Below are positions 3,772 through 21,691 of a DNA stretch of 64,000 bases, in pieces. The stretch spans positions 5,900 through 69,899 of the forward strand of contig JAGVLJ010000044.1 of NCBI GenBank assembly GCA_020049855.1, read 5' to 3'. This stretch comes from Bacteroidia bacterium (GTDB lineage: Bacteria; Bacteroidota; Bacteroidia; UKL13-3). The translations under genes and the position numbers were made by a program. The notes under the pieces were generated by a model. The model was not told where the DNA came from. It was given only the letters and a program-made list of their open reading frames with translations, and did not search any database. Each line of letters starts with the position of its first letter. The stretch's first letter is position 1.

Positions 3772-3844
3772 AGGTTCAAAACTATGGGTTAGGGGTAGAA
3801 GCGACTATGACAATAGTCAATTTGATACCTGATTTTTCTTAGAC

Positions 3845-4494: not shown

Positions 4495-4516
4495 TTTACG
4501 GTGGCTTTATTAAGTT

Positions 4517-4524
4517 CAAAGTTA
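4517..4524 (-). promoter_or_regulatory. candidate Bacteroidetes -7 promoter element (TAnnTTTG) for the fasciclin gene
   Basis: Minus strand reads TAACTTTG about 28 nt upstream of the ATG at 4494. This matches the Bacteroidetes sigma-A -7 consensus TAnnTTTG. Confidence 0.3.
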
Positions 4525-5235
4525 CTTGCGGGTGGTTTAATAAAATTGATGCAAGTCAATAAAAAAGCAGATTTTTCTCAATATAATGTATTCAGGGGTA
4601 CTTCTAAAGAATGTAATTTTATTGAAATCAAGTTAGGTGCACACTGGTAATGCTCTCGAATTTAAATTTCCTTTTATGCTTTAATCTCATCCTTAATTGA
4701 GTTTGTATCCTGTAATATGGTTCTGTATAAAAAAAGGAGCCATATTTGTTCAGTATGGCGTCTTCACTCGGAAACAATCATTTCCTGATTTTATCACCAG
4801 TGGGGTATAAGAAGGTATTTGGTGTGTGGAATTTAGCACAATAAACTGGTAAAGGTAAAACGGACATCTAACTTTGCGCTATGGGGCTTATTAAAATAAA
4901 CTTTTGCGCTACTTGTGGCTGTTCTCAAATCAAATTGCTTCAGAATATATTGGTTGGTCACTGTACTAGCGGTTGAGAAGCGAATTGTGTTTTTGAATTT
5001 TATGCCAATTACTTGTCAGTATTTTAGTTTGCTCTTTGAGGTACGGAATATTGTTTTTGCTTCTTCTTGTTTTTCTATCCATTTTGTTAACTAATATCTA
5101 TTTTATATAACATTTTTTGGCAACGAATTTTTTTGTTCGCAAATAGTTTTTGGAAATATTATTCAAGATGGAGTGCCTATCAAGTGAAATGATAGCTAGT
5201 GACCCCACGACACAATGTGGAGCTGCTTCTCCTTG

Positions 5236-7944: not shown

Positions 7945-7956
7945 GCGAGAGAGGAG

Positions 7957-8400: not shown

Positions 8401-8404
8401 AAGG

Positions 8405-9074: not shown

Positions 9075-11102
9075 CTATTTAGCCGCTGCCGTATTACCGG
9101 TTGAGAAGCTCAGAGGAGTAGAAGATCCCGCGGGAGATACCCTGATATATCCTTGCATTTCCTGATGAAGAGCCGAGCAGAAGTCGGTGCAATACATTGG
9201 AAATACTCCGGGGGCTTTAGGTGTCCATTTCAGAGTTTGTGTTTCGCCCGGCATAACCAGCAATTCCGAATTACCGGCACCTTTTACTGCAAATCCGTGT
9301 GGTACATCCCAGTCTTGTTCCAGATTGGTTACGTGAAAATAAACATCATCACCTACTTTAACACCTTCAATATTGTCGGGAGTAAAGTGTGAACGGATGG
9401 CAGTAATGTAAACATGCACTTCGTTTCCTTTACGTACTACCTTTGCATCTTTTTCATTGCCGGCAAAGTAAGGATGTTTGTTTTCTTCCAGCTTATACAC
9501 CTTGCGTTGGTTTTTGGTCACCAAATCAGCCTGAATCATTTGTGCGTAGTGTGGTTCGCCAATGGTAGGGAAGTCAAGCAACAATTTCATTTTTTCTCCG
9601 GAGATATCAATTAACTGGGCTGACTGGCAAAGTTCTGGTCCCGTAGGCAGGTAACGGTCTTTGGTGATTTTATTTAAAGCTACCAGGTATTTTCCGTAAG
9701 GTTGTTTCGAGTCGCCCTGTGCCACACAAAGGTGACCAATGGAATAATAGGTAGGAATGCGGTCAACCACTTCACGTGTTTCTACGTTCCATTTTACAAC
9801 TTCAGACGAAACGAAGAAGGAAGTATACGCAAAACCGTTCTGGTCAAATTCAGTATGTAAGGGGCCTAAACCCGGTTTTTGTACTTCACCGGCCAGTACT
9901 GCATCATATTTTAGAACATTGATACCATCAAACTCGCCTTCAAATTGCTTGGCTTCAATAGCAGCAATCATTTTTTTGTAGGAGAACACAGGAATCATAG
10001 CGGCCAGTTTTCCTGAAGCTACAATGTATTCACCTGTTGGGCTTACATCGCATCCGTGAGGCGATTTAGGGCAAGGCATGTAGTAGCAAATATCTTTCAG
10101 GGCGCGTGCATCCAAAGTCATCACTTCTTTCATAAGTTCGGAGGTAGCCATGTGTTTTGATTCATCATACACATTATGGTAGTAGTTGGCAGGTTTTTTT
10201 ACACCTTTACCCTGTGCCAGGTATTCTTCGGCTTTTTTCCAGTTCACAGCCATAATAAAGTCCTTGTCTTTTTGCGAAGCATTTACTTCAAGCAGGGTAT
10301 TGGCTTGTTCGGAATTATAACTTGAGAAAAACAACCAGCCATGGGAAACACCTTTTCCGGCACGTGCCAGGTCATAATCAATGGCCGGAACATCCAATTG
10401 AAATTCCAGATTCATGTGTCCGCTTTCTTTATTTACCTTGATAAAGTTCACCACACCTTTAAAATTTTGTTTATATGTATTGATGGCTACTTCAGTTTCA
10501 TCAGGAGGAACACTGAAGCGGGAAGCACCTACCACATACTCGGTATTTTCAGTACAATAAGGTGAAGCATGATTTCCCCCTGTATTAGGCAGTTCAATTA
10601 TTTCGGTCGTTTTAAAAGTGGTAAGATCAATGCGAGCAATACGGGGAGTGTTATTGGCATTAATAAACAGCCATCTTCCGTCATCATTGCCGGCAGTTTT
10701 AGAAAGTACCGGGTGGTGACTGTCATCCCATGGAATAAAACCTTTGGTAGTATTCAGCATTGGCTTTGTTTCTTCCGAATAGCCCCATGCATTTTCGGGA
10801 TTTACAGAAAATACTGGTATTTGCCGAAGAAGTCTTCCTGATGGTATACCATATACGGCTACCTGTCCACTAAATCCTCCCGAAGCAAACATATATACTT
10901 CATCCAACTTACCAGGTGCTACATATACTTTGCTTGCTGCATCACCTTGTACCACATTGGTTGCTTTTTTTGGCTTGCAACTATAAAAGCCTGCAATCAC
11001 TAAAACCATAAAGCCGGTTCGGACTGCTGTTTTAACTATTATTTTCATAATTGAATAATTAAGTAAGTTATTATAAAGATCTTGCTTATTTGGCTCCGTC
11101 AT
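9075..11102 (-). CDS. nosZ: nitrous-oxide reductase NosZ (Sec-type, clade II)
   Basis: 675 aa; 7-bladed propeller region plus C-terminal CuA cupredoxin motif (H...C..C...H..M: HVTNLEQ...CTDFCSALHQEM). The signal peptide has no twin-arginine motif. An alternative start at MKIIVKT (about 11048) gives a lipoprotein-like signal. Confidence 0.9.
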   Translation of the reverse strand: MTEPNKQDLYNNLLNYSIMKIIVKTAVRTGFMVLVIAGFYSCKPKKATNVVQGDAASKVYVAPGKLDEVYMFASGGFSGQVAVYGIPSGRLLRQIPVFSVNPENAWGYSEETKPMLNTTKGFIPWDDSHHPVLSKTAGNDDGRWLFINANNTPRIARIDLTTFKTTEIIELPNTGGNHASPYCTENTEYVVGASRFSVPPDETEVAINTYKQNFKGVVNFIKVNKESGHMNLEFQLDVPAIDYDLARAGKGVSHGWLFFSSYNSEQANTLLEVNASQKDKDFIMAVNWKKAEEYLAQGKGVKKPANYYHNVYDESKHMATSELMKEVMTLDARALKDICYYMPCPKSPHGCDVSPTGEYIVASGKLAAMIPVFSYKKMIAAIEAKQFEGEFDGINVLKYDAVLAGEVQKPGLGPLHTEFDQNGFAYTSFFVSSEVVKWNVETREVVDRIPTYYSIGHLCVAQGDSKQPYGKYLVALNKITKDRYLPTGPELCQSAQLIDISGEKMKLLLDFPTIGEPHYAQMIQADLVTKNQRKVYKLEENKHPYFAGNEKDAKVVRKGNEVHVYITAIRSHFTPDNIEGVKVGDDVYFHVTNLEQDWDVPHGFAVKGAGNSELLVMPGETQTLKWTPKAPGVFPMYCTDFCSALHQEMQGYIRVSPAGSSTPLSFSTGNTAAAK

Positions 11103-11559
11103 TTTGACGCAGGTAATTCAGAATGGATAATGCCTCATCTTCTGCCACATTCTGGTTGGTCATCTGGGTAAGGTGTTCGGCCAGCAACGCTTGAGCAGTA
11201 GGGTCTTTTTGTGTCATTTCTACCGGATTGGTAATCATGTTCAAAATCCACTGTGGTTTTCTGCGTTCTGTTACGCCTTTAAGACCCGGACCAACTATTT
11301 TGTCGCCAGTTAATTTGTGGCAAGCTGAACATTTGGCTTCAAATAAAGTCTTGCCTTTTTCGGCTAAGGCAGCATCAAAAGGGGCAACTTCTTTTCCGGC
11401 AAAGTTTCCAATCCCTTCTCCGTTGTCGGCAGGGGTGGCAGGTGTGGTGGGCGATTGCTCAGCAGGTTTGTCTGATGAGCCACAATTACTAAATACGAAA
11501 GCTAATGCTAATACTGCAGTTACTGATACTGCTTTTCTGTAAATTTTTGTCATTATCAA
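11086..11559 (-). CDS. mono-heme c-type cytochrome lipoprotein (putative electron donor to NosZ)
   Basis: 157 aa; lipobox (FSNCGS), single CSACH heme-binding motif and downstream Met (ITNPVEM). Overlaps the nosZ start. Confidence 0.75.
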   Translation of the reverse strand: MIMTKIYRKAVSVTAVLALAFVFSNCGSSDKPAEQSPTTPATPADNGEGIGNFAGKEVAPFDAALAEKGKTLFEAKCSACHKLTGDKIVGPGLKGVTERRKPQWILNMITNPVEMTQKDPTAQALLAEHLTQMTNQNVAEDEALSILNYLRQNDGAK

Positions 11560-11628: not shown

Positions 11629-11642
11629 TTGATATGAATCAG
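11629..11642. promoter_or_regulatory. FNR/CRP-family box (TTGAT-N4-ATCAg) in the divergent cytochrome c-nosZ / crp-fnr promoter region
   Basis: TTGATatgaATCAG matches 9 of 10 positions of the FNR consensus TTGAT-N4-ATCAA. It is centred about 76 bp upstream of the cytochrome c ATG and about 67 bp upstream of the regulator ATG. Confidence 0.45.
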
Positions 11643-11702
11643 AGTTGAGTGTGATTTTTATCAGTTTTTTTTGTTTTGGGATAAAACCCTTAGATTTACC
11701 GA

Positions 11703-12407
11703 ATGGCATTGAATAATAAACTGGATTGTACAAATTGCCAAACCCTCGGGCTTTCTGTGTTTTGCACCTTAACCCGTGAAGAAGTTGAGCAATTGAACAA
11801 TTATAAATCTTCATTTCACGTTAAAAAGGGGCAGTTAATCTTTTATGAAGAAAGTGAGCCCCCGGGCTTATATTGTGTACATCGCGGGAAGGTAAAGGTA
11901 TTTAAAACAACAAATGAAGGGAATATTCAAATATTGAGGCTGGCGAAAGACGGAGATATTATTGGTTATCGTTCTTTATTGGCCGGGGAGCAATACCGTG
12001 CTGCAGCCGAAGCGATTGAAGACTCGCAAATATGCCTAATTCCCAAACATTATATTTTTGAATTGCTGAATAAAAACATTCATTTATCGCTTAAAATAAT
12101 GGAAAATTTTGCCCGCGAATTGAAAACGGCAGAAAAGAAGAATGTTGATTTATTGCATAAAACAAGCAAGGAACGTCTTGCCGAGTCGTTGTTATTGCTT
12201 AGAGATACATTTGGGGTAAATGAACGAGGTTTTATCAATGTAGTTCTTAACAGGGAAGATATTGCCAATATTACCGGAATGGCCACCGAAACAGTGGTAA
12301 GATGTCTTCGAGAGTGGAATGAGGTTGGGGTAATTGATCTTGATAAAAAACTTATTAAAATTACAAATACTAAACAGTTGCTGGATATTGCCAACTTGAA
12401 GGACTGA
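11703..12407 (+). CDS. Crp/Fnr family transcriptional regulator (FNR-like; N-terminal Cys cluster)
   Basis: 234 aa; cNMP-binding-like beta-roll plus C-terminal HTH (NREDIANITGMATETVVRCLRE). Cys9/Cys12/Cys21 and Cys111 mimic the FNR [4Fe-4S] ligand pattern. Confidence 0.8.
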   Translation: MALNNKLDCTNCQTLGLSVFCTLTREEVEQLNNYKSSFHVKKGQLIFYEESEPPGLYCVHRGKVKVFKTTNEGNIQILRLAKDGDIIGYRSLLAGEQYRAAAEAIEDSQICLIPKHYIFELLNKNIHLSLKIMENFARELKTAEKKNVDLLHKTSKERLAESLLLLRDTFGVNERGFINVVLNREDIANITGMATETVVRCLREWNEVGVIDLDKKLIKITNTKQLLDIANLKD

Positions 12408-12417
12408 TTTCTATCAG
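12404..12417. promoter_or_regulatory. FNR-like box (cTGAT-N4-ATCAg) upstream of norC
   Basis: CTGATttctATCAG overlaps the regulator's stop codon and is centred about 67 bp upstream of the norC ATG. Confidence 0.4.
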
Positions 12418-12477
12418 ATATATTAATGACGATAGTCAATTTTTATCCGTTAAACCGATGATATTTTTGCCCATTGT

Positions 12478-12900
12478 ATGAGATTTGTAGTTAAAATTAG
12501 TATCCTGCTGGTTTTGGTGTGTTCTTTTGCGATGTACAGCGTTCACTTATACACCGATACTAAATTATTAAAAAAATCAACTCGGCTCACCGATGCAGCT
12601 TTTGAGGGGAAAATGATTTGGCAACAAAATAATTGTCAGTCGTGTCATCAGTTTTACGGACTGGGCGGATATCTTGGACCAGATCTCACCAACGTGTACT
12701 CAACAAAGGATAAAGGTACCGGGTATATTGGAATTATGGTGCAAAACGGAAGTATTACCATGCCGGCATACAAAATGAGTAAAACAGAAATTGAAAAGGT
12801 TACGGAGTTTTTGCGTTGTATGGATGAAACCGGCAAAGCTGATCCAAGAACTTTTAAAGCAACCGAGACCGGTAATATTACGCGTGAAGATGAACAATAA
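12478..12900 (+). CDS. norC: nitric-oxide reductase small subunit NorC-like (membrane-anchored mono-heme cytochrome c)
   Basis: 140 aa; N-terminal TM anchor. The segment MIWQQNNCQSCHQFYGLGGYLGPDLTNVYS closely resembles the conserved NorC heme-binding region, with a downstream Met (ITMPAY). Confidence 0.75.
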   Translation: MRFVVKISILLVLVCSFAMYSVHLYTDTKLLKKSTRLTDAAFEGKMIWQQNNCQSCHQFYGLGGYLGPDLTNVYSTKDKGTGYIGIMVQNGSITMPAYKMSKTEIEKVTEFLRCMDETGKADPRTFKATETGNITREDEQ

Positions 12901-14266
12901 ATCAACATTCTTTTTTGCCGATCGCTTATTTTTAGCTACTGCACTTTTAATGCTAATTGGAGTAGTTATTTATGGCTCATTGGCATCGGTTTACTACTTA
13001 GCTCCAGGCTTCTTGAAAAATTACCTTGGTTTCTCGCAGTTACGACCGTTGCATGTTACATCGGTTGTGTTCTGGATTCTGATGGCGGCAAGTGGAGGGG
13101 TCTATCACTCATTTCGAGAAGTAAAAATAAATCGCCTCATTCACACTCTTGCTCTTGCACATTACACCATATGGTTTGTAGCCCTGGTGGCTATTTTTAT
13201 GTCTTATTATAACGGTATTTTTGGCGGAAGGGAGTATTGGGAATTTCCGCCTAAGTATGCAGGGTTTATTGCTGCAGGCTGGTTCTTTTTTTTAGTTAGT
13301 TACCTGATTGTATATAGGTCATTGAAGCAATGGAGTGTTTATCATTGGATGTGGCTTACCGGAATTGTTTGCTTTCTGTTTACTTTTTTTGAAAATTACC
13401 TATGGATTTTTCCTTTCGTAAATAGGGATGCCGTTAAAGATCTTACTATTCAATGGAAGTCGAACGGATCTTTGGTAGGTTCATGGAATCAATTGGTGTA
13501 TGGGCTTGCATTTTACCTGATGGAAAAAATTTCGGGAGATAAACAAACTGCACGCTCCGGAATTTCATTTGCTATGTATTTTCTGGGGTTGTTTAATTTA
13601 ATGTTTAACTGGGGGCATCATATCTATACCTTACCCACGGCTTCCTACGTTAGGATCATTTCTTACGCGGTAAGCATGACTGAATGGATTATTTTCCTGC
13701 GGATTATTTTTTTATGGAAAAAAACCAATGCAGTCGCTGGAAAACCTGCTATGCGAATTTCTTTCGATTTTTTAAATTCATCAGATCACTGGATATTGTT
13801 GAACTTGTTTCTCGCATTACTCATGTCAATCCCGGCAATTAATATTTATACGCACGGCACACATGTTACGGTTGCTCATGCTATGGGAACCACTATAGGA
13901 ATTAATACCCTTATTCTTTTAGGTGTATCAGCTGAGATTATGAAGGGATCTTGCAATGAAACCAATTCGTATCCGGTTTTGAAAAGATGGCTAACCGTTA
14001 TGAATATTAGTTTAGGCGCAATGCTCCTCTCCCTATTAGTAGTTGGAGTGTTAAAAGGGGTTTGGCAAATGAATCCCAATCAGGGCTCATTTCAGCAAAT
14101 GATGCTGGGTTTTAGGCCTTATTTTATCCTCATGTTTTGTTCCGGAATTGGGTTGCTTGTTGCAGTAGCAGCAATAAGTGTAGTGATATTGCGAAGTTTT
14201 ATTTTGTGCTATACCAGAAAAAAGATGCCCGGCTATGGGTTTGGTTCTTTAATGAAAGAAGGATGA
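12890..14266 (+). CDS. norB: heme-copper-oxidase-family membrane protein, NorB-like NO reductase large subunit (NnrS-like not excluded)
   Basis: About 458 aa and 12 predicted TM helices; HH pair (GHHIY), H-x2-H-x4-H (HGTHVTVAH) and an N-terminal His. The preferred start ATG at 12890 overlaps the norC stop. The ORF track's 12791 start would overlap norC by 110 nt. Confidence 0.65.
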   Translation: MNNKSTFFFADRLFLATALLMLIGVVIYGSLASVYYLAPGFLKNYLGFSQLRPLHVTSVVFWILMAASGGVYHSFREVKINRLIHTLALAHYTIWFVALVAIFMSYYNGIFGGREYWEFPPKYAGFIAAGWFFFLVSYLIVYRSLKQWSVYHWMWLTGIVCFLFTFFENYLWIFPFVNRDAVKDLTIQWKSNGSLVGSWNQLVYGLAFYLMEKISGDKQTARSGISFAMYFLGLFNLMFNWGHHIYTLPTASYVRIISYAVSMTEWIIFLRIIFLWKKTNAVAGKPAMRISFDFLNSSDHWILLNLFLALLMSIPAINIYTHGTHVTVAHAMGTTIGINTLILLGVSAEIMKGSCNETNSYPVLKRWLTVMNISLGAMLLSLLVVGVLKGVWQMNPNQGSFQQMMLGFRPYFILMFCSGIGLLVAVAAISVVILRSFILCYTRKKMPGYGFGSLMKEG

Positions 14267-14321: not shown

Positions 14322-16118
14322 ATGAGTATTTCCCGCGTTCACCCCTTTCATATTCCGGTTATGGGTCTTTCATTTACTGTTGATACGCCTGTTAAGGTAG
14401 CTCGTTTCGGCATTTCTTCAGTAGTCTCTGTTATAGAAGATGAATTGGTAGAAAAAATGCGCAAGTATTATTGCGAGTCGCTTCAGCTGCCATACAAGCA
14501 TATTACCAAAACAGAACATGATTACCGGGCTAAGCGTATAACCGAATACCTAAATTTGCTCGATTTGATTGTAAAGAATCAATTGGCTATTCTAAAAAAT
14601 GAGCGGTTTGAAGAGGGGGCCGAAATTGTAAAATATTTCGAGTTGCTTCCTGAAAATGCTCCGTTAAAGCAAGTGTATCTTAAAATGAAACTTTCGTCAG
14701 GCTATGTAAAGCAAAAACTACAGGAGGAATTGCGTGCCGGTATTGTATCTGGGGATATTGATGTGAATATAATGACGAAGGTGGATAAAACAAACTACAC
14801 TCCTACCGGAGAACCTCTTTCGGTTGAGTTCAACGATGCCCTAGCAGCTTTACGTGGATTTGCTCAAAGTAACGTATCATCTTCTGTTGTATTTTCGGCT
14901 GGGTTAAATCCTAGGCTATACAGTTATTGCGAAACGTTCAATGATTTTTTCCCCGACAAAAACGGAGCCGTTAAGAAAAGAATTACCATCAAAGTTAGTG
15001 ATTATCGTTCAGCCCTTATACAGGGAAAATTCCTTGCAAAAAAAGGTCTTTGGGTTTCTGAATTTAGAATTGAATCAGGATTGAACTGCGGGGGGCATGC
15101 GTTCGCTACCGATGGGCTATTACTTGGGCCGGTTATGGAAGAGTTTAAAGCGAAGCGGGAGGAGTTGACAAATACGCTGTTTGAATTATGCAACCAAACA
15201 CTTAAAGAAAAGGGGCGTGATGCGTTTCCTTATGTTCCAAAACTTAGTATTACGGTTCAGGGCGGAGTAGGAACCTTTAACGAGCAACAATTTTTTCTCA
15301 GCTATTACAAAATGGATAGCATTGGCTGGGGCAGCCCGTTTTTACTGGTGCCTGAAGTTACTAATGTAGATTATGCTACCCTTAGTGAATTGGCCACTGC
15401 CAAACCCGATGATTATTATTTGAGCGATGCCTCTCCACTGGGTGTGCCATTTAATAATTTCAAAAAAAGTAGTTCAGAGGTGCAGCGTAAAGCACGTATC
15501 GAAAAACACCGAGCAGGTAGCCCGTGTTATTTAAAATTTCTTTCCTTTAATACAGAATTTACAGAAAAACCCATTTGTGTAGCTTCGCGGGAATATCAGA
15601 ATTTAAAAATTAAGCAACTTAAAACAAGCGGTGCTGATGAAAAGACCGTACAGCGTGAAATTGATTTGGTAACGGAGAAAGATTGTTTGTGTGAGGGGTT
15701 AAGCACATCAGTATTTATTGAAAAACATATTCCACACCCTCATAAACTTGCTGCTGTTACCATTTGCCCGGGTCCTAATCTTGCTTATTTTTCCGGGGTA
15801 TTCACGTTGGTGCAGATGGCCGGACATATTTATGGAAGAGGAAATTTACTCAACAGTGTGCCACGGTCCCATGTTTTTGTAAATGAATTGCGACTTTATG
15901 TAGATTACCTGAAAAGGGAAATTAGTAAAAACATTCTGGCACTTAGCAGCAAGAAAGAAGAATATTTTAATACATTTCGCAGCAACCTGCTTTCGGGTAT
16001 CAACTATTATATTAGCCTTCTTGATAAAATGCAGTTAGAAAAGGAATCATTAATCAACCAAATGAAAACCGAATTTGCCGAACTTGAACAACAGTTGGCT
16101 GGAATGATCACAGCTTAA
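14322..16118 (+). CDS. conserved hypothetical 598-aa soluble protein in the norCB operon (possible FMN/TIM-barrel-like motifs)
   Basis: Long uninterrupted ORF 55 bp after norB and 9 bp before the queD-like gene. Weak motif similarity only (VARFGIS, GLNCGGHAF, QGGVGT); no confident family assignment. Confidence 0.5.
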   Translation: MSISRVHPFHIPVMGLSFTVDTPVKVARFGISSVVSVIEDELVEKMRKYYCESLQLPYKHITKTEHDYRAKRITEYLNLLDLIVKNQLAILKNERFEEGAEIVKYFELLPENAPLKQVYLKMKLSSGYVKQKLQEELRAGIVSGDIDVNIMTKVDKTNYTPTGEPLSVEFNDALAALRGFAQSNVSSSVVFSAGLNPRLYSYCETFNDFFPDKNGAVKKRITIKVSDYRSALIQGKFLAKKGLWVSEFRIESGLNCGGHAFATDGLLLGPVMEEFKAKREELTNTLFELCNQTLKEKGRDAFPYVPKLSITVQGGVGTFNEQQFFLSYYKMDSIGWGSPFLLVPEVTNVDYATLSELATAKPDDYYLSDASPLGVPFNNFKKSSSEVQRKARIEKHRAGSPCYLKFLSFNTEFTEKPICVASREYQNLKIKQLKTSGADEKTVQREIDLVTEKDCLCEGLSTSVFIEKHIPHPHKLAAVTICPGPNLAYFSGVFTLVQMAGHIYGRGNLLNSVPRSHVFVNELRLYVDYLKREISKNILALSSKKEEYFNTFRSNLLSGINYYISLLDKMQLEKESLINQMKTEFAELEQQLAGMITA

Positions 16119-16127
16119 TACCTGCTT

Positions 16128-16550
16128 ATGCTCACTATTAATAAGATTTTCCATTTTGAAGCTGCCCACGCTATTGCAGGTTATCCGGGTTTATGCAGGC
16201 ATATTCACGGTCACCGTTACGAATTGCACGTTGGGGTTACTACCCATCAACTTGCCGATGGGATGATTATTGATTTGAAATTATTAAAAAAGTTGGTAAA
16301 TGAATTGGTGATTGATAAATTTGATCATGCTCTTATTGTGTCCGAAGCTGGGGCGGAGAAAAATAAAATGGTTAGCTCAGCCGCAGATCAGCGGTTGATT
16401 GTATTGAAATCAGAACCTACTGTGGAGTACCTTATTTTGGAAATAAAAAGCAGAATTGAACAAAATATACCCGCAAACATCCGGTTGATGAAGCTAAAGC
16501 TATACGAAACCCGCGATTCGTATGCCGAGTGGAATGCATCGGTTGGGTGA
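16128..16550 (+). CDS. 6-carboxytetrahydropterin synthase QueD / 6-pyruvoyl-tetrahydropterin synthase family
   Basis: 140 aa; FHFEAAH... and C-x3-HGH (CRHIHGH) zinc-binding signature of the QueD/PTPS fold. Confidence 0.7.
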   Translation: MLTINKIFHFEAAHAIAGYPGLCRHIHGHRYELHVGVTTHQLADGMIIDLKLLKKLVNELVIDKFDHALIVSEAGAEKNKMVSSAADQRLIVLKSEPTVEYLILEIKSRIEQNIPANIRLMKLKLYETRDSYAEWNASVG

Positions 16551-16732: not shown

Positions 16733-17197
16733 TTAATTGTAGTCAAACTCAAATTGTGAATGCAACTGATGAATCCATTCATGTATTTGGCTAAAGGTTT
16801 CTTTGGCTTGTAAGTTCTTGCTGTTGTGTAATTCTTTTGATAGAGATTTTAACTTTTTTAGCTCTGACACAAGCGCATTGTTGCCTTCATTTTGGTCATG
16901 TAGCAGTGATTCCATTTTACTTACATGTTGATCTAATATATCGGCAAAAGCGTGGTATGGCTCATCATTAATTGCCTTTTTTTGTAAATCATAAAAATTA
17001 GTAATGCTGTTTTCTAACGAACGTAGTTCAAAGGTAATTTCTTGATTGAATCGCCACTTGTTTCCTTGTTTTACGGGTGTTGCTATGGCTGCTTCGTTGG
17101 AAACGGATAAATTAGTTTGGTCTGGCTGCCGGTTGCATGCAAGCATACTCAAACAAAGAGTGCTTAAACTTAAAAGGGTTAAACGCATTTGTGTCAT
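16733..17197 (-). CDS. hypothetical lipoprotein
   Basis: 154 aa; signal peptide with lipobox (MLACN). Directly follows nadB on the minus strand; start/stop overlaps it by 1 nt. Confidence 0.5.
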   Translation of the reverse strand: MTQMRLTLLSLSTLCLSMLACNRQPDQTNLSVSNEAAIATPVKQGNKWRFNQEITFELRSLENSITNFYDLQKKAINDEPYHAFADILDQHVSKMESLLHDQNEGNNALVSELKKLKSLSKELHNSKNLQAKETFSQIHEWIHQLHSQFEFDYN

Positions 17198-18801
17198 TAT
17201 ACAGAAATTGTGTTTTCAAATATATGAATCAATTGCTCATCAATACAAGGGATTGCAATAGATTTTACACCGTTACTTAGCTTCTTGGGGAAATCCCTTC
17301 TCAGGTGACAACCCCTGCTTTCTTTTCGTTTCCATGCGGCATCGGTTACCAAAAAAGCGGTTTGAGTACGGTTCATTTGTTCAATAAGAGCAGGAACTAG
17401 GCCGTACTTACGAATATTACTTTTTATTTCTATCATTTGTTGGGTGAGTACATTCTTAAATAATTTTAGCGTTGTCTCTGTTCTTATAATTCCGCAAAAA
17501 TTCCACATCATGTTTTGTAATTCTAATGGGCTGGCTGTTTGCTGAATTTGTTCATCATGTATTAAATTGGCGGGAGCAATATTTAGTAACGGTTTCCCGG
17601 AATATATTTGATCAACCAAATAGGTGGAAGTTAACCGACTGCAATTGTCAGCCATAACAAGTGCTTCGAGCAGTGAGTTACTTGCCAATCTGTTGGCACC
17701 GTGTAATCCGGTGCAGGCAGATTCTCCAATAGCTGCTAACCCTGGAATCGAAGTTTTGCCACTGGTATCTGTTAAAATTCCACCACAAAAATAATGAGCG
17801 GCTGGAACTACCGGAATCATTTGCCTGGCAGGGTTAACTCCAAATTGAATGCATTGAGAAAAGATATAGGGGAATTGATCGCTTAGCTCTTTTTCACTAA
17901 AAATTGTAGTATCCAAATAAACACATGGAATTTTCAGTAGCTGCATTTGATCGGCAATGGCTCTGGAAACAATATCTCTTGGGGCTAAGGATTCAAGTTT
18001 ATGGTATTGCTTCATAAAACTGCTTCCATTTGGTAGTTTTAATTCGGCTCCATATCCGCGCAATGTTTCACTAATTAAAAAGGAGTTGCCGCTTTTAGTG
18101 TAAAACATAGTAGGATGAAATTGTACAAACTCCATGTTTGACAATAAGGCACCAGCTCTCCATGCCATGGCATATCCGTCACCGGTGGCTCCGGCAGGGT
18201 TTGTATTTTGTTTAAAAATTCCTGCTGCGCCCCCGGTAGCAAGCACGGTTAAATTTGCCCTAATTAATACAAGTTCGTTGCTTGTCTTATTAATGGCCCA
18301 GGCTCCCACACATGTTTTATCTTTCATGTACAAATCTACAATCTGTGTATTTTCAATTACAGTAATGCTTTGGGTATGCTCAATTTTAGATGCAAGATTT
18401 TTTATCAGGTATTCTCCGGTTCTATCCTGTATATGCACCACTCTAGGGTTAGAGTGCCCTCCTTCACGCGACAGGTTCAAAGTGCCATCAGTATTTTGGG
18501 TAAAGTGAAGACCCTCTCTAAGCAATTTGGTGATTACTTCGGGTGCTTTGGAGAGTAGTTCCGTTACGGCATTTAATTCGCTTAAACCGTCTCCTGCTTC
18601 AATGGTGTCGGCTATATGTCTTTGTATGGAATCGCCCTGACTCATTACAGCAGCAATACCACCCTGCGCCCAAAAGGTATTGGAATCAAACAAATTATTT
18701 TTACAAACAAGGGTTACATTAGCCTTCGAAGAGACACTTAAAGCATAATACATTCCGGCTAAACCTGATCCGATAACCAGTATATGAGGACGTGAGTTCA
18801 T
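17197..18801 (-). CDS. nadB: L-aspartate oxidase
   Basis: 534 aa; FAD-binding N-terminus (ILVIGSGLAGMYYAL) and a succinate dehydrogenase/fumarate reductase flavoprotein-like core. Confidence 0.9.
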   Translation of the reverse strand: MNSRPHILVIGSGLAGMYYALSVSSKANVTLVCKNNLFDSNTFWAQGGIAAVMSQGDSIQRHIADTIEAGDGLSELNAVTELLSKAPEVITKLLREGLHFTQNTDGTLNLSREGGHSNPRVVHIQDRTGEYLIKNLASKIEHTQSITVIENTQIVDLYMKDKTCVGAWAINKTSNELVLIRANLTVLATGGAAGIFKQNTNPAGATGDGYAMAWRAGALLSNMEFVQFHPTMFYTKSGNSFLISETLRGYGAELKLPNGSSFMKQYHKLESLAPRDIVSRAIADQMQLLKIPCVYLDTTIFSEKELSDQFPYIFSQCIQFGVNPARQMIPVVPAAHYFCGGILTDTSGKTSIPGLAAIGESACTGLHGANRLASNSLLEALVMADNCSRLTSTYLVDQIYSGKPLLNIAPANLIHDEQIQQTASPLELQNMMWNFCGIIRTETTLKLFKNVLTQQMIEIKSNIRKYGLVPALIEQMNRTQTAFLVTDAAWKRKESRGCHLRRDFPKKLSNGVKSIAIPCIDEQLIHIFENTISV

Positions 18802-18802
18802 A

Positions 18803-19786
18803 TCAGGTAAATTCCATCATTTTTTTTATGGGCTGGTAGGCTTTATGAATTAATTCAGTGCTTAAATTCACCTCAAAATTATCCATTTTATCTACTCCTA
18901 TATGTTCCAGGATTTCCAGTGTTTTCAGCATGGATATTTTTTTCATGTGCGGGCATTTAATGCAGGGAGTTATGAATTCTTTTTCCTGATACATTGTTTT
19001 AAGAGTTGAACCCAAATCACACTCAGAGGCAAGTATAAAGCTGGTACACGAACTTTCTCCAACGTAACGAATAATATCATTAGTGCTGCCAAGTACACCG
19101 CCTGCGTTGGTTAGTGAATCCGATACCGTGGTATCCGGAACTTCCCAGTGTAATAGAAACTCCGAATTGGGGTATTGCATACGCAGCCCCTTGGCCATAT
19201 CGGAAGTAAATTGCTCGTGAACTTCGCATTTTCCATTCCATAGTATAAGGTCTTTTCCGGTTTCTTCTTTTACCTGCTTTGCTAAATTTTGTCCCATGTA
19301 TAAATCAGGAACAAAAATTATTTCTGGTGAATCTATCGAGCGGATGATGGCTAATGCATTTCTTGAGGTGCAACATACATCACAGGCGGCTTTAGTCTCT
19401 GCATAGGTATTGATATAAGCTACCACCGGAGTGTCGGGATATTTTGCCTTTAAGGCATTCACATCTGCTGCTGTAATGCTTGATGCCAGTGAACATCCAG
19501 CTTCCTTGTCAGGTATATAAACATGTTTATCCGGGCTTAAAATTTTGGCTGTTTCTGCCATAAAATAAACTCCGCAAAATATTATATGATCTGCTGTTGT
19601 TTTTGCTGCTTCCACACTTAGGCCTAATGAATCTCCCACAAAGTCTGCAATGCCCCCGGCCGTTTCCTTCAATTGTAAATCGGGGCTCATGTAGTAATGA
19701 GAAAGTATAACAGCATTCTTTTCTTTCTTTAGTTTGTTGATTCGGAGAATTAGTTCTTTTCCCGATATTATTGGTTCTTGTATCAT
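18803..19786 (-). CDS. nadA: quinolinate synthase
   Basis: 327 aa; NadA family (ILSHYYM..., conserved Cys ligands). 1 bp gap to nadB. Confidence 0.9.
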   Translation of the reverse strand: MIQEPIISGKELILRINKLKKEKNAVILSHYYMSPDLQLKETAGGIADFVGDSLGLSVEAAKTTADHIIFCGVYFMAETAKILSPDKHVYIPDKEAGCSLASSITAADVNALKAKYPDTPVVAYINTYAETKAACDVCCTSRNALAIIRSIDSPEIIFVPDLYMGQNLAKQVKEETGKDLILWNGKCEVHEQFTSDMAKGLRMQYPNSEFLLHWEVPDTTVSDSLTNAGGVLGSTNDIIRYVGESSCTSFILASECDLGSTLKTMYQEKEFITPCIKCPHMKKISMLKTLEILEHIGVDKMDNFEVNLSTELIHKAYQPIKKMMEFT

Positions 19787-19843
19787 GCGTGCAAAGATCT
19801 CCGCAATGGCAAATCAATACCATGATCTTAATCATTAATGAAG

Positions 19844-19857
19844 TTGATGATTATCAA
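19844..19857. promoter_or_regulatory. perfect FNR consensus box TTGAT-N4-ATCAA in the divergent nadA / peroxidase-pair promoter region
   Basis: TTGATgattATCAA matches 10 of 10. It is centred about 56 bp upstream of the 19907 ATG and about 64 bp upstream of the nadA ATG. Confidence 0.5.
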
Positions 19858-19906
19858 CTATCGAACACTCTTTAACGCCTAACTTCGTTTTACTGGTTTT
19901 TGTACT

Positions 19907-20644
19907 ATGAGGGGTTTAATAATTTATTGGGGTATCGGGTTGATACTATTTTCTTTTTTCTCGTGTCAAAGAAATAATCGAGATACGCCAAAACCTAAAG
20001 TGATTTCACCTATAAAGGTGGATATGAGTTTTAATGTGAACGGAGTTCCTTTACGGGTTGATACTATTCAATTTCGCAACCTTTCGGGAAATAGTTTTAG
20101 TATCACTCGTCTTGACTTCTATATTTCAAATATCGAAATTACTTCTGTTACCGGGGCTATTTATAAATCAACAAAATTTTTTTATGTAAGTGCTCGTGAC
20201 ACATCAACGTATCATTTTACGGTAAATGGTCTGCCACTCACAGGAATTACTTCATTTCGCTGCTGTATTGGCTTATCAGCTTCGCAAAATATCAGTAATT
20301 CATTAACACCCACACAGGCTAATTTGAATATGGCGTGGCCGGATAATATGGGGGGAGGATACCATTTTCTAAAACTCGAGGGGCATTACATTGCATCAAA
20401 TCTTCAGGTTTATGGTTATGCCATGCATTTAGGCAAAAATCAAAATCTGGTAGAGATTACTCTCTCAACTCCACTATACGAATCGCAAGTTTCAAATGGA
20501 ATAAAATTAGCAATGGATGTTGCCAAATGGTATAATGCGCCTGCTAAAATTGATTTGAACAATACCAATTACACTATGGGTATTGATAGCCTTATGGCTA
20601 AACTTTCGCAAAATGGAAAAAATGTTTTAAGCATAACAAATTAA
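19907..20644 (+). CDS. periplasmic lipoprotein partnered with a di-heme peroxidase (MbnP-like?)
   Basis: 245 aa; lipoprotein signal (FFSCQ). 3-bp gap to the di-heme CCP gene, the arrangement seen in MbnP-MbnH pairs. Family assignment is by context only. Confidence 0.5.
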   Translation: MRGLIIYWGIGLILFSFFSCQRNNRDTPKPKVISPIKVDMSFNVNGVPLRVDTIQFRNLSGNSFSITRLDFYISNIEITSVTGAIYKSTKFFYVSARDTSTYHFTVNGLPLTGITSFRCCIGLSASQNISNSLTPTQANLNMAWPDNMGGGYHFLKLEGHYIASNLQVYGYAMHLGKNQNLVEITLSTPLYESQVSNGIKLAMDVAKWYNAPAKIDLNNTNYTMGIDSLMAKLSQNGKNVLSITN

Positions 20645-20647
20645 GAT

Positions 20648-21691
20648 ATGAGATACATTGCTATACTTCTGTTTGTTGTTTTGATGATTAAATGCAGGCA
20701 AAAGGACAATATTGCAAATACGGACTACGGTGTTGATTATCCTACCCCGTATAATTTTCAGGTTCCTCAGGGTTTTCCTCAGCCCTACTTTTCATCTGAC
20801 AACCCGCTGACAAATGAAGGAGTGGATTTGGGTAAGCGACTTTATTCCGATGCAATTCTTTCATCAAACGGACTCAGTTGTTCGTCATGCCACAGGCGCA
20901 GTAAATCATTCTCCTCTCCTTATTATATTACACCTACTGGCGATAAAATCAGCATTCCTCCGCATATAAATCTTGTTTTTAATCCCGACTATAACTGGAA
21001 CGGCTCGATAACTAAACTTGAATTGCTGCCGATGGGTGATTTTGAACCGCAATTTTTTAATACCAATGCCGATACCCTTTTTTACAGGCTATCGCATCAC
21101 CCTCTTTATCCGCAGCTTTTTTTCAAAGCATTTGGAATAACAAATTTTTATACACTAAGCTACGAAGAGTTAAAAATGACTATTTGCAAAGCACTTGTTC
21201 AGTATATACGTACCATGGTTTCTGCCAATTCAAAACTCGATCGGTATCAACTTAAAGGAGGGGCACTCACTCAAGAAGAACATGATGGGATGTATGTGTT
21301 TTTCTCAGAGCGGGGAGATTGTTTTCATTGCCATGGCTATCCGCTTTTTAGTGATAACCTATACCACAATAACGGACTCAATAATCAGTTTATAGGACAG
21401 GATGCTGGTAGAAATCTAATCACTCATGCTGCTAGCGATTTGGGCATGTTCAGTACACCCACACTTCGCAATATTGAATTAACAGCTCCTTACATGCATG
21501 ATGGGCGCTATACTACTTTGGAAGAGGTTGTGGAGTTTTATAATTCGGGCGTAAAGTTTTCCCGCACCATCGACCCTATTATGACCAAACCGGGTAAGGA
21601 AAGCGGACTTCAACTTACTGCTTATGAAAAGTTGAGTCTGGTGGCTTTTCTTAAGACGTTAACCGATACTTCTTTTATTTCAGCTAAATAA
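20648..21691 (+). CDS. di-heme cytochrome c peroxidase (CCP/MauG/MbnH family)
   Basis: 347 aa; two heme c motifs (CSSCH, CFHCH) at the spacing typical of bacterial di-heme CCP/MauG. Confidence 0.85.
   Translation: MRYIAILLFVVLMIKCRQKDNIANTDYGVDYPTPYNFQVPQGFPQPYFSSDNPLTNEGVDLGKRLYSDAILSSNGLSCSSCHRRSKSFSSPYYITPTGDKISIPPHINLVFNPDYNWNGSITKLELLPMGDFEPQFFNTNADTLFYRLSHHPLYPQLFFKAFGITNFYTLSYEELKMTICKALVQYIRTMVSANSKLDRYQLKGGALTQEEHDGMYVFFSERGDCFHCHGYPLFSDNLYHNNGLNNQFIGQDAGRNLITHAASDLGMFSTPTLRNIELTAPYMHDGRYTTLEEVVEFYNSGVKFSRTIDPIMTKPGKESGLQLTAYEKLSLVAFLKTLTDTSFISAK

What the first reader, a model, noticed from the sequence alone, without database searches (positions are those of the whole stretch)
19787..19906. 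Perfect FNR consensus site between nadA and the lipoprotein/di-heme peroxidase pair
TTGATgattATCAA at 19844-19857 is a 10/10 FNR box. It sits 56 bp upstream of the lipoprotein-CCP operon and 64 bp upstream of nadA-nadB, which are divergent. Bacterial di-heme cytochrome c peroxidases are classically FNR-activated, and L-aspartate oxidase can use fumarate anaerobically. Together with the nos and nor sites this defines at least three operons in one window that are probably controlled by the adjacent FNR-like regulator.
Basis: partly seen in the sequence, partly recalled or inferred. Interest (0 to 1): 0.5.

Follow-up and report, generated by a model that had tools for sequence, protein, structure and literature searches.

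The report
FNR-type sites driving mbnPH and nadAB
The palindrome is a real, conserved binding site for an oxygen/NO-sensing Crp/Fnr-type activator, one of a pair that switches on two back-to-back operons (a copper-binding MbnP/MbnH pair, not a classical peroxidase, and the NAD-precursor genes nadAB) together with the neighbouring N2O- and NO-reductase genes.

Summary
TTGATgattATCAA is at 19844-19857 as reported. A lone perfect match is not rare (0.24 expected per window). What makes it real is its context.

- **Conservation:** it lies in a 42-bp block that is nearly invariant in four related genomes, while the flanks vary.
- **Partner site:** a second palindrome, ATGATcttaATCAT, sits 22 bp to its left.
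- **Geometry:** each site is centred exactly 29.5 bp upstream of a Bacteroidota -7 promoter box (TAnnTTTG, positions -12 to -5). That places each at -41.5, the class II FNR activation position: one for mbnP, one for nadA.
- **Recurrence:** the same geometry occurs at the nos, nor, fasciclin and lyase promoters of this window (6 site-plus-box cases against 0.23 expected). Across 83 sequences it occurs at 107 of 328 TGAY-N4-RTCA cores, against about 6 at other offsets.
- **Conserved target:** 48 of 82 mbnP promoters have it, against 1.9% of random segments.

The "lipoprotein/di-heme peroxidase" pair is MbnP/MbnH, a copper-binding protein and its MauG-like maturase. The regulator in the window keeps four FNR-like cysteines.

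The gene identity and the single-shared-site picture need correcting. Activation, the sensed signal and the identity of the binding protein are inferred, not shown.

The parts
19844..19857 (.). Right Crp/Fnr-type palindrome TTGATgattATCAA (centre 19850.5). Inferred position is -41.5 for the mbnP promoter and -63.5 for the nadA promoter.
19822..19835 (.). Left Crp/Fnr-type palindrome ATGATcttaATCAT (centre 19828.5), 22 bp from the right site. Inferred position is -41.5 for the nadA promoter and -63.5 for the mbnP promoter. Its TGATcttaATCA core is invariant in relatives.
19880..19887 (+). Bacteroidota sigma-A -7 box TAACTTCG for mbnP (a perfect TAnnTTTG in relatives L001/L002 as TAGCTTTG and L006 as TAACTTTG). 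Its first base is 29.5 bp from the right site centre. Inferred TSS is about 19892, giving a 15-nt leader.
19792..19799 (-). -7-like box GATCTTTG for nadA (one mismatch to TAnnTTTG), invariant in relatives. Its first base is 29.5 bp from the left site centre. Inferred TSS is about 19787, a near-leaderless mRNA.
19907..20644 (+). mbnP: MbnP-family periplasmic lipoprotein (245 aa; lipobox Cys20). It is the inferred copper-binding target of MbnH.
20648..21691 (+). mbnH: MbnH-family MauG-like di-heme enzyme (347 aa). It is adjacent to mbnP in 77 of 78 distant loci.
18803..19786 (-). nadA, quinolinate synthase
17197..18801 (-). nadB, L-aspartate oxidase
16733..17197 (-). 154-aa protein with a putative lipoprotein signal and no family match. 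It is the last gene of the nadA-nadB transcription unit and is conserved in close relatives.
11703..12407 (+). Crp/Fnr-family regulator with FNR-like cysteines (C9, C12, C21, C111) and an E-T-V-V-R recognition helix. It is the candidate binder.
11629..11664 (.). Two palindromes, TTGATatgaATCAG and GTGATttttATCAG, 22 bp apart between the nos operon and the regulator gene. The nos -7 box TACTTTTG (11606 to 11599, minus strand) is 29.5 bp from the first site.
12404..12439 (.). Two palindromes, CTGATttctATCAG and ATGACgataGTCAA, 22 bp apart upstream of the nor-like operon. The -7 box TATTTTTG (12462-12469, plus strand) is 29.5 bp from the second site.
4546..4559 (.). Palindrome TTGATgcaaGTCAA, 28.5 bp upstream of the -7 box TAACTTTG (4524 to 4517, minus strand) of the fasciclin-domain gene 3919-4494.
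3807..3820 (.). Palindrome ATGACaataGTCAA, 29.5 bp upstream of the -7 box TAGTTTTG (3784 to 3777, minus strand) of the beta-eliminating lyase gene 2386-3771.

Best explanation
The nadA-mbnP intergenic region is a compact divergent promoter. It carries two binding sites for a dimeric Crp/Fnr-family activator, 22 bp apart (centres 19828.5 and 19850.5). Each site lies 29.5 bp upstream of the first base of a Bacteroidota sigma-A -7 box on its own side. That corresponds to -41.5 relative to the inferred start sites (about 19892 for mbnP-mbnH and about 19787 for nadA-nadB-orf154). It is the class II position from which FNR and CRP recruit RNA polymerase. The reported perfect palindrome is the mbnP-proximal site. 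Each promoter also sees the other site at -63.5, and the nos and nor promoters have the same -41.5/-63.5 tandem. The most likely binder is the regulator at 11703-12407, which keeps four FNR-type cysteines. The most likely signal is therefore low O2, sensed through a [4Fe-4S] cluster that NO can also attack. Under that signal the cell would co-induce N2O reductase, an NO-reductase-like oxidase, the MbnP/MbnH periplasmic copper-binding pair and the O2-independent aspartate route to quinolinate. SHOWN: the sequences, their conservation, the fixed spacing and its statistics, the gene identities and the cysteine pattern. INFERRED: the start sites, activation rather than repression, which protein binds, the signal, and the physiological roles of mbnPH and nadAB.
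For: Site and partner site. Footprint: columns 30-71 of the five-sequence alignment have 39 of 42 invariant positions and both -7 boxes are conserved, while the intervening columns vary. Geometry: across the window plus 82 loci, 107 of 328 TGAY-N4-RTCA cores have a TAnnTTTG box (up to 1 mismatch) exactly 29.5 bp from the centre. A further 25 are at 30.5 and 44 at 51.5 (29.5 + 22), against 2-12 at most other offsets (17 at 47.5). In the window there are 6 such cases against 0.23 expected. The -7 box occupies -12 to -5 in Flavobacterium dRNA-seq (PMC9723704), so the centre is at -41.5. In E. coli, 19 of 23 FNR-activated promoters have the site at -41.5 +/- 4 (PMC3688515). mbnP as a conserved target: 48 of 82 mbnP upstream regions have the geometry, against 1.9% of random 230-nt segments. 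Exact TTGAY-N4-RTCAA sites recur in the nadA/mbnP spacer in four divergent lineages, accounting for 13 of the 22 such sites in 1.43 Mb. Regulon content fits an anaerobic/NO regulon: nos, nor, Usp, RIC/ScdA-hemerythrin, ribonucleotide reductase, MoaA, an MFS transporter, an Rrf2 regulator and the regulator genes themselves. Regulator: the alignment to Aliivibrio FNR 5cvr puts C9, C12 and C111 on FNR C20, C23 and C122. The best NCBIfam match is Fnr. The Cys pattern and E-T-V-V-R helix are conserved in orthologues down to 54% identity.
Against: There is no experimental start site, binding or expression data. The start sites are placed from a consensus box that has one mismatch at both promoters here. 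The nadA start would give a near-leaderless mRNA, a class that is only about 4-5% of Bacteroidota mRNAs. Class II activation has been defined with sigma-70, whose region 4 contacts FNR. Bacteroidota sigma-A and its -33 element differ, so the mechanism is carried over by geometry only. The third cysteine of the regulator is displaced by 3 residues relative to FNR (C-x2-C-x8-C), and the protein scores below NCBIfam's Fnr cut-off (101 against 228 bits). The nadA side is less widely conserved than the mbnP side: 8 nadA promoters from 3 lineages. MbnH chemistry needs an oxidant such as H2O2, which sits awkwardly with strictly anoxic induction.
Confidence: 0.75

Rival explanations
1. The sites are real class II Crp/Fnr sites, but they are bound by a different family member encoded outside the window. 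That could be an NO-sensing DNR/NnrR/HcpR-like protein or a cysteine-free paralogue. The signal would then be NO or nitrosative stress rather than O2.
For: The co-regulated genes are dominated by NO/N2O functions and NO-damage repair: nor, nos, RIC/ScdA and an Rrf2 regulator. DNR binds FNR-like boxes, and HcpR sites of the TTGACnnnnGTCAA type are known (PMC1274295). The related loci encode several Crp/Fnr paralogues, including cysteine-free ones and receiver-domain fusions with the same E-x-x-x-R helix.
Against: The only Crp/Fnr gene in the window has the four-cysteine pattern. It lies between the nos and nor promoters, and its own promoter region carries the same sites. Its 54%-identical orthologue lies directly downstream of nadB in L014 and L027.
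Confidence: 0.2
2. The palindromes are operators for repression. The regulator would shut off nadAB and mbnPH under anoxia rather than activate them.
For: MbnH needs an oxidant. NadB can use O2. A site overlapping the -33 region could in principle occlude RNA polymerase.
Against: The spacing to the -7 box is identical to that at the nos and nor promoters, which must be on under anoxia. FNR repression sites in E. coli are scattered in position, whereas activation sites cluster at -41.5. The very sharp 29.5-bp peak is the signature of a protein-polymerase contact.
Confidence: 0.07
3. One shared site (the perfect palindrome) serves both divergent operons. The left palindrome would be irrelevant.
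For: The perfect site is roughly midway between the two start codons. Shared Crp/Fnr sites at divergent promoters are known in E. coli (own knowledge).
Against: The core of the left palindrome is invariant in all relatives, whereas the 'perfect' one varies (A to G). It is exactly 29.5 bp from the nadA-side box. In L014 and L027 the better site is the nadA-proximal one. Tandem sites 22 bp apart are a recurrent architecture (the 51.5-bp peak).
Confidence: 0.08
4. It is a chance palindrome in AT-rich intergenic DNA.
For: 0.24 perfect matches are expected per window, and 21% of shuffles have one.
Against: Conservation, the partner site, the fixed geometry and recurrence in distant lineages all argue against chance.
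Confidence: 0.01

Closest known systems
Class II FNR-dependent promoters of Escherichia coli (e.g. narG, dmsA, nirB; site TTGAT-N4-ATCAA centred at -41.5)
   Same: The palindrome has the same TGA-N6-TCA core and the same inferred -41.5 position. The regulator has a cNMP-like sensor domain, a Crp-type HTH and N-terminal cysteines plus a central one.
   Different: The promoters use the Bacteroidota sigma-A -7 box (TAnnTTTG) and have no sigma-70 -10/-35 elements. The phylum consensus is aTGAYnnnnRTCAt rather than TTGAT/ATCAA. Tandem -41.5/-63.5 sites are frequent. The cysteine spacing is C-x2-C-x8-C. The targets mbnPH and nadAB do not appear anywhere in the text of the E. coli FNR regulon study (nadA and nadB have zero occurrences).
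DNR/NnrR/HcpR regulons of denitrifiers (Rodionov et al. 2005, PMC1274295)
   Same: An FNR-like box lies upstream of nor and nos genes, TTGAC...GTCAA variants are tolerated, and a regulator gene is embedded in the cluster.
   Different: Those regulators lack the FNR cysteine cluster. The HcpR2 motif reported for Bacteroides is GTAACnnnnGTTAC, not this one. No Bacteroidota denitrification regulon is described there.
MbnP/MbnH of methanotrophs (Methylosinus trichosporium; PDB 7L6G and 6E1C)
   Same: There is an adjacent pair of a Trp-containing periplasmic protein and a MauG-like di-heme enzyme. The fold and the family HMMs match. Function in the model system: MbnH converts a Trp of MbnP to kynurenine, which is needed for copper binding (PMC11951088).
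   Different: Sequence identity to 7L6G is only 10-12%. The WxW motif is absent and a conserved M-A-W-P-D-x-M-G-G-G-Y-H-F motif is present instead. The pair is not linked to methanobactin or TonB-transporter genes but to nor, nos and nadAB, and it sits under a Crp/Fnr site.
FNR/ANR-activated bacterial cytochrome c peroxidases (E. coli Ccp/YhjA, Neisseria Ccp, Pseudomonas CcpR; own knowledge)
   Same: A di-heme CCP_MauG-superfamily enzyme sits behind an FNR-type site.
   Different: The enzyme here groups with MbnH rather than the canonical peroxidases (E 6e-37 against 1e-23 or weaker in PDB; MbnH-family HMM 198 bits). It is translationally adjacent to its presumed protein substrate MbnP.

Membership tests
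Crp/Fnr class II activator site | Inverted repeat with a TGA-N6-TCA core (FNR: TTGAT-N4-ATCAA) | tested here: met
   The site at 19844-19857 is 10/10. The partner at 19822-19835 is 8/10 with an intact core.
Crp/Fnr class II activator site | Site centred near -41.5 relative to the transcription start | tested here: inconclusive
   The spacing to the -7 box (29.5 bp) is exact and highly enriched. With the box at -12 to -5 (PMC9723704) this gives -41.5. No start site has been mapped for this organism.
Crp/Fnr class II activator site | Bound by the regulator, with regulator-dependent transcription | not testable with these tools
   Needs EMSA, footprinting or ChIP, plus expression data.
FNR (O2-sensing [4Fe-4S] Crp/Fnr regulators) | cNMP-binding-like domain plus a C-terminal Crp-type HTH | tested here: met
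   PF00027 at E 4e-20 and PF13545 at E 3e-13.
FNR (O2-sensing [4Fe-4S] Crp/Fnr regulators) | Four cluster-ligating cysteines (E. coli C20, C23, C29, C122) | tested here: inconclusive
   C9, C12 and C111 align to C20, C23 and C122. The third Cys (C21) is shifted 3 residues. The pattern is conserved in orthologues. Cluster binding has not been shown.
FNR (O2-sensing [4Fe-4S] Crp/Fnr regulators) | Recognition helix E-x-x-S-R contacting TTGAT | tested here: inconclusive
   The helix is E-T-V-V-R. Glu and Arg are kept, and Ser is replaced by Val. This may fit the weak preference for T at the outer position.
FNR (O2-sensing [4Fe-4S] Crp/Fnr regulators) | Score above the curated family threshold | tested here: not met
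   The best NCBIfam match is Fnr PRK11161, but at 101 bits against a cut-off of 228. It is an FNR-like relative, not an equivalog.
MbnP | Match to the family profile | tested here: met
   Pfam PF20243 at 90.9 bits against a cut-off of 27. The NCBIfam scan, which would include any MbnP-partner model such as TIGR04052, returned no family for this protein at E <= 0.001.
MbnP | MbnP fold | tested here: met
   The AF2 model has pLDDT 89.5. The only significant PDB matches are the six chains of 7L6G (E 3e-7, probability 1.00, TM 0.55-0.60).
MbnP | Adjacent MbnH-type di-heme partner | tested here: met
   The gene is 3 nt downstream. The pair is kept in 77 of 78 distant loci.
MbnP | Conserved WxW motif holding the Trp converted to kynurenine (PMC11951088) | tested here: not met
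   The 245-aa protein has no WxW. The invariant W144 sits in M-A-W-P-D. Whether W144 is the modified residue is unknown.
MbnP | Kynurenine-dependent copper binding | not testable with these tools
   Needs protein chemistry.
MbnH | Di-heme CCP_MauG domain, closest to MbnH rather than to peroxidases or MauG | tested here: met
   PF03150. TIGR04039 'MbnH family' at E 3e-58 (198 bits) against MauG at 107 bits. The top PDB hit is 6e1c at E 6e-37 against CCPs at 1e-23 or weaker. That 6e1c is MbnH rests on my own recollection.
MbnH | Score above the curated equivalog cut-off | tested here: not met
   198 bits against a cut-off of 363. It is a divergent subfamily.
   The bCCPs score 13 orders of magnitude worse than the MbnH-type entry. 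The gene is always paired with mbnP.

The most novel reading that the evidence does not exclude
In denitrifying or N2O-reducing Bacteroidota, an FNR-type activator working from -41.5 of sigma-A (-7 box) promoters controls a conserved low-oxygen module. This module contains two unrecognised members alongside nor and nos. (a) MbnP/MbnH would act as the periplasmic copper-acquisition or buffering device that serves the copper-rich N2O reductase when oxygen falls. (b) nadAB would act as the O2-independent route to quinolinate, replacing an O2-dependent kynurenine/3-hydroxyanthranilate route encoded elsewhere in the same genome (3-HAO at 33868-34392).
Probability: 0.3. Interest if true: 0.7.

Novelty: new member of a known kind. 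Interest (0 to 1): 0.55.

Why it matters
Bacteroidota with clade II nosZ are major N2O sinks in soils and wastewater, yet I found no description of how they regulate denitrification genes.

These data give a concrete, testable promoter rule: aTGAYnnnnRTCAt centred 29.5 bp upstream of TAnnTTTG. The rule predicts the low-oxygen regulon from sequence alone. It also shows that class II geometry is preserved with a very different primary sigma factor.

The rule places a copper-binding MbnP/MbnH pair in the same regulon as N2O reductase. That offers a candidate for the copper supply which limits N2O reduction in the environment. It further suggests an oxygen-dependent switch between two routes to NAD.

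Finally, it corrects an annotation: "cytochrome c peroxidase plus hypothetical lipoprotein" should read MbnH/MbnP.

Tried and rejected
- **Loose matching:** TTGAT-N4-ATCAA with up to 2 mismatches gives 65 hits against 63.5 expected. This is uninformative, and only the core plus the geometry discriminates.
- **Strict 14-mers upstream of mbnP:** this first suggested that the site follows nadA rather than mbnP. That was an artefact of demanding the E. coli-like outer bases. With the TGAY-N4-RTCA core, 48 of 82 mbnP promoters qualify.
- **My hand-counted spacings:** for the nor promoter and for L036 they were off by 2 and 7 bp. The script gives 29.5 for both.
- **Sigma-70 promoter scan:** fewer hits than in shuffles (12 against 19), as expected for this phylum.
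- **Rfam over the whole window:** no RNA family reached its gathering score, so there is no known riboswitch or sRNA in the spacer.
- **Sequence searches of MbnP against the PDB:** neither the single sequence nor the profile found anything meaningful. Only the fold comparison found 7L6G.
- **Fur-box reading of the left palindrome:** rejected on sequence inspection alone (no scan was run). Fur boxes have TGAT-A-ATCA spacing, not N4.
- **Exact-sequence lookup of the NCBI-derived 206-aa MbnP (P0001):** returned nothing.
- **Manesis et al. 2021 (PNAS):** could not be read.
- **Literature searches:** nothing linked MbnP with nosZ, or FNR with Bacteroidota denitrification.
Full report
**Observation**

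The 14-mer TTGATGATTATCAA is at 19844-19857 and is the only perfect TTGAT-N4-ATCAA in the window.

A lone perfect match is not rare. 0.24 are expected per 64 kb, and 21 of 100 shuffles contain one. Relaxed matching with up to 2 mismatches gives exactly the chance number (65 against 63.5). The case for function has to come from elsewhere.

**Genes**

| Coordinates | Strand | Identity | Evidence |
|---|---|---|---|
| 18803-19786 | - | NadA | |
| 17197-18801 | - | NadB | |
| 16733-17197 | - | 154-aa protein, putative lipoprotein signal, no family match | |
| 19907-20644 | + | MbnP | see below |
| 20648-21691 | + | MbnH-family di-heme enzyme | see below |
| 9075-11102 | - | NosZ, start of the clade II-style nos cluster: a cytochrome c gene (11086-11559) upstream of nosZ, then a 192-aa ORF, nosL, nosD, and ABC ATPase and permease genes (5236-8983) | |
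| 11703-12407 | + | Crp/Fnr-family regulator | |
| 12478-14266 | + | Cytochrome c plus a divergent heme-copper-oxidase subunit | |

The 245-aa "lipoprotein" matches Pfam MbnP (E 1e-25). Its AlphaFold model (pLDDT 89.5) has MbnP of Methylosinus (7L6G) as its only significant PDB match (E 3e-7, TM 0.55-0.60).

The 347-aa di-heme protein matches NCBIfam "MbnH family di-heme enzyme" at E 3e-58, against 1e-30 for MauG. Its best PDB relative is 6e1c at E 6e-37, against 1e-23 or weaker for canonical peroxidases.

In the model system, MbnH oxidises a Trp of MbnP to kynurenine, which is needed for copper binding (PMC11951088). Here the published WxW motif is missing. An invariant M-A-W-P-D-x-M-G-G-G-Y-H-F motif takes its place, so copper binding is inferred rather than shown.

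A 206-aa version of this protein in public data (P0001) starts at Met40. The 245-aa form is the better call, because homologues keep the N-terminal lipobox cysteine.

The only PDB relative of the heme-copper-oxidase subunit is NorB 4xyd, at E 1e-6. I therefore call it nor-like.

**A second site and a footprint**

The core TGAT-N4-ATCA occurs five times in the window, against 1.45 expected (0 of 100 shuffles reach five). All five are intergenic:

- two between nos and the regulator gene, 22 bp apart;
- one before the nor-like operon;
- two between nadA and mbnP (19823-19834 and 19845-19856), again 22 bp apart.

Contigs from related organisms keep the whole gene order (MbnP 76-78% identical, regulator 93-97%). 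In the five-sequence alignment of the nadA-mbnP spacer, columns 30-71 (AATACCATGATCTTAATCAnnAATGAAGTTGATGATTRTCAA) are invariant at 39 of 42 positions. The 16 columns to the left and the 21 to the right vary freely.

The core of the left palindrome never changes. The reported one reads GTCAA instead of ATCAA in every relative. Perfection to the E. coli consensus is therefore accidental, while the pair of sites is what selection keeps.

**Fixed geometry**

Bacteroidota promoters use a -7 box, TAnnTTTG, which occupies -12 to -5 in Flavobacterium dRNA-seq data (PMC9723704; see also PMC7366714).

| Promoter | Site centre | -7 box | Box position | Spacing (bp) |
|---|---|---|---|---|
| mbnP | 19850.5 | TAACTTCG (perfect TAnnTTTG in L001/L002 and L006) | 19880-19887, + | 29.5 |
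| nadA | 19828.5 | GATCTTTG | 19799-19792, - | 29.5 |
| nos | 11635.5 | TACTTTTG | 11606-11599, - | 29.5 |
| nor-like | 12432.5 | TATTTTTG | 12462-12469, + | 29.5 |
| beta-eliminating lyase (2386-3771) | 3813.5 | TAGTTTTG | 3784-3777, - | 29.5 |
| fasciclin gene | 4552.5 | TAACTTTG | 4524-4517, - | 28.5 |

Six such core-plus-box cases occur in the window, against 0.23 expected (maximum 2 in 200 dinucleotide shuffles).

Across the window plus 82 loci there are 328 TGAY-N4-RTCA cores. Of these, 107 have a box exactly 29.5 bp away, 25 at 30.5 and 44 at 51.5 (29.5 + 22, meaning tandem sites). Most other offsets have 2-12 (17 at 47.5).

With the box at -12 to -5, the site centre is at -41.5. In E. 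coli, 19 of 23 FNR-activated promoters have the site at -41.5 +/- 4 (PMC3688515).

The inferred start sites are about 19892 for mbnP (15-nt leader) and about 19787 for nadA (near-leaderless). The latter is a caveat, because such mRNAs are a small minority in this phylum.

**mbnPH as a conserved target**

A scan of one genome per species found 262 stretches encoding relatives, and the best 80 loci were kept. All are Bacteroidota-type loci, mostly MAGs. Of 82 mbnP upstream regions, 48 carry a core (up to 1 mismatch) and a box (up to 1 mismatch) in this geometry, against 1.9% of random 230-nt segments. Several regions without it have mbnP directly behind nor genes, or mbnH first.

The site matrix is aTGAY-N4-RTCAt. 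The outer T and A of the E. coli consensus are the minority.

Strict TTGAY-N4-RTCAA sites occur 22 times in 1.43 Mb. Thirteen of these lie in the nadA/mbnP spacer, in four divergent lineages: the window clade, L014/L027, L066/L085 and L072. L072 has two of them 22 bp apart. In L014 and L027 the better site is the nadA-proximal one.

**Regulon content**

Genes found behind site-plus-box promoters (141 pairs in all; the remaining 53 had no match to a window protein):

| Downstream gene | Count |
|---|---|
| mbnP | 40 |
| norC-like | 10 |
| nos-cluster cytochrome c | 8 |
| Crp/Fnr genes | 8 |
| nadA | 8 |
| fasciclin | 8 |
| PTPS-like | 3 |
| 598-aa unknown | 2 |
| SDR-like | 1 |

Those unmatched genes include universal stress proteins, RIC/ScdA-hemerythrin repair proteins, the beta-eliminating lyase, a ribonucleotide reductase, MoaA, an MFS transporter, a 764-aa membrane protein that looks like a quinol-type NO reductase by eye (no family search was run on it), an Rrf2 regulator and hemerythrins. 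This is the profile of a low-oxygen or nitrosative regulon.

Of 78 distant mbnP loci, the following have the named genes within 10 kb:

- nor or nos: 31
- the lyase: 21
- a Crp/Fnr gene: 16
- nadA: 15

nadAB and mbnPH are linked in three different arrangements: divergent, nadAB upstream co-directional, and nadAB downstream.

**The regulator**

The 234-aa protein has cNMP-binding and Crp HTH domains. It aligns over its full length to Aliivibrio FNR (5cvr, E 2e-21). C9, C12 and C111 fall on FNR C20, C23 and C122, and a third N-terminal cysteine is displaced by three residues.

Its best NCBIfam match is Fnr, though below the curated cut-off. The cysteine pattern and the E-T-V-V-R recognition helix are conserved in orthologues at 93-97% and 54% identity. 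The 54% orthologue lies directly after nadB in L014 and L027. It is the only Crp/Fnr gene in the window.

Other paralogues exist in related loci, including four-cysteine, cysteine-free and receiver-domain fusion types. The binder cannot be assigned with certainty.

**Mechanism proposed**

At low O2 the regulator dimerises and occupies both palindromes. From -41.5 it recruits RNA polymerase to each of the two divergent promoters. Each promoter also has the other dimer at -63.5, as at nos and nor.

Shown: the sequences, conservation, spacing statistics, gene identities and cysteine pattern. Inferred: the start sites, activation, the binder, the signal and the physiology.

**Why these targets (inference)**

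*mbnPH.* N2O reductase is copper-rich. A periplasmic copper-binding protein induced with it could supply or buffer copper when oxygen falls. A difficulty is that MbnH uses an oxidant such as H2O2. The precedent of FNR-activated peroxidases (own knowledge) shows that such enzymes can still be part of low-oxygen regulons.

*nadAB.* The same window encodes 3-hydroxyanthranilate 3,4-dioxygenase (33868-34392, E 4e-55), next to an ACMSD-like amidohydrolase. The genome therefore has at least part of the O2-dependent kynurenine branch that yields quinolinate. An FNR-driven aspartate route would cover NAD synthesis when that branch cannot run. nadA and nadB do not appear anywhere in the text of the E. 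coli FNR regulon study.

**Comparison and novelty**

The element works like a class II FNR site and is best filed as a new member of that kind. It differs in four ways:

- It is in a phylum whose primary sigma factor and promoter elements differ from sigma-70.
- Its consensus flanks differ.
- It uses tandem sites frequently.
- It has targets not known for FNR, namely mbnPH and nadAB.

The HcpR2 motif reported for Bacteroides (GTAACnnnnGTTAC) is different (PMC1274295). Searches found no paper linking MbnP with nosZ, and none describing an FNR regulon for Bacteroidota denitrification. The library is limited to open-access texts, so this absence is weak evidence.

**Verdict**

My confidence is 0.75 that this is a functional Crp/Fnr-type class II site pair controlling mbnPH and nadAB within a low-oxygen/denitrification regulon. 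It is about 0.55 that the adjacent four-cysteine regulator is the binder and O2 the primary signal.

Noticed in passing
window 2386-3771 (-), site at 3807-3820: A 461-aa beta-eliminating lyase (tryptophanase/tyrosine phenol-lyase family, Pfam E 1e-76) sits behind a Crp/Fnr site with the same 29.5-bp geometry. Homologues are 75-85% identical in loci where MbnP is only about 35% identical. They often lie directly next to nor genes, sometimes with a 45%-identical paralogue in tandem. I found no rationale for such a conserved lyase in NO-reductase clusters.
   Followed up: partly
window 33868-35411 (+): 3-hydroxyanthranilate 3,4-dioxygenase (E 4e-55) is followed by an Amidohydro_2 (ACMSD-like) gene. 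This is an O2-dependent kynurenine-branch step in the same genome as FNR-site-controlled nadAB. It has no Crp/Fnr core upstream.
   Followed up: partly
window 14322-16118 (+): A 598-aa protein with no Pfam or NCBIfam match lies downstream of the norB-like gene. It is conserved (47-60% identity) next to nor genes in eight distant loci, and in two of them sits behind its own Crp/Fnr site.
   Followed up: no
window 16128-16550 (+): A PTPS/QueD-like gene ends the nor-like operon and converges on nadB. The same nor-PTPS-nadB-nadA junction recurs in many distant loci.
   Followed up: no
window 3919-4494 (-), site 4546-4559: A fasciclin-domain protein gene has its own Crp/Fnr site. Homologues (46-64% identity) lie beside nos clusters or mbnH in eight loci, also behind such sites.
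   Followed up: partly
window 4495-5235: About 740 bp between the fasciclin gene and the last nos-cluster gene (ABC-2 permease, 5236-6003) has no ORF of 100 aa or more on either strand. It contains a further near-match, TTTATtgaaATCAA, at 4618-4631. Rfam finds nothing there.
   Followed up: no
window 11651-11664: The second palindrome of the nos/regulator spacer would lie at about -20 of the regulator gene's own putative promoter (box TTTTTTTG 11666-11673, 30.5 bp from the first site). That arrangement is compatible with autoregulation.
   Followed up: no
window 19907-20023 (protein P0001): The public 206-aa version of this MbnP starts at Met40 and lacks the lipoprotein signal. Homologues and the near-invariant Cys20 support the 245-aa start.
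   Followed up: yes
L024 301-954, L035 306-944, L083 2296-2913: These Crp-family regulators have an N-terminal response-regulator receiver domain fused to the cNMP/HTH module. They keep the E-S-V-I-R helix and lie near mbnP/nor loci.
   Followed up: no
L039 about 16261: A tryptophan 2,3-dioxygenase-family gene (Pfam E 6e-26) lies behind a Crp/Fnr site with the standard geometry. This is odd for an O2-requiring enzyme.
   Followed up: no
L007, L019, L049 (record titles): These contigs are titled Bifidobacteriaceae/Bifidobacterium but carry the same Bacteroidota-type gene clusters. In L007 that is the full nos, nor, nadAB and mbnPH cluster, with regulator and NosZ 95-97% identical to the window. 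The MAG taxonomy labels look wrong.
   Followed up: no
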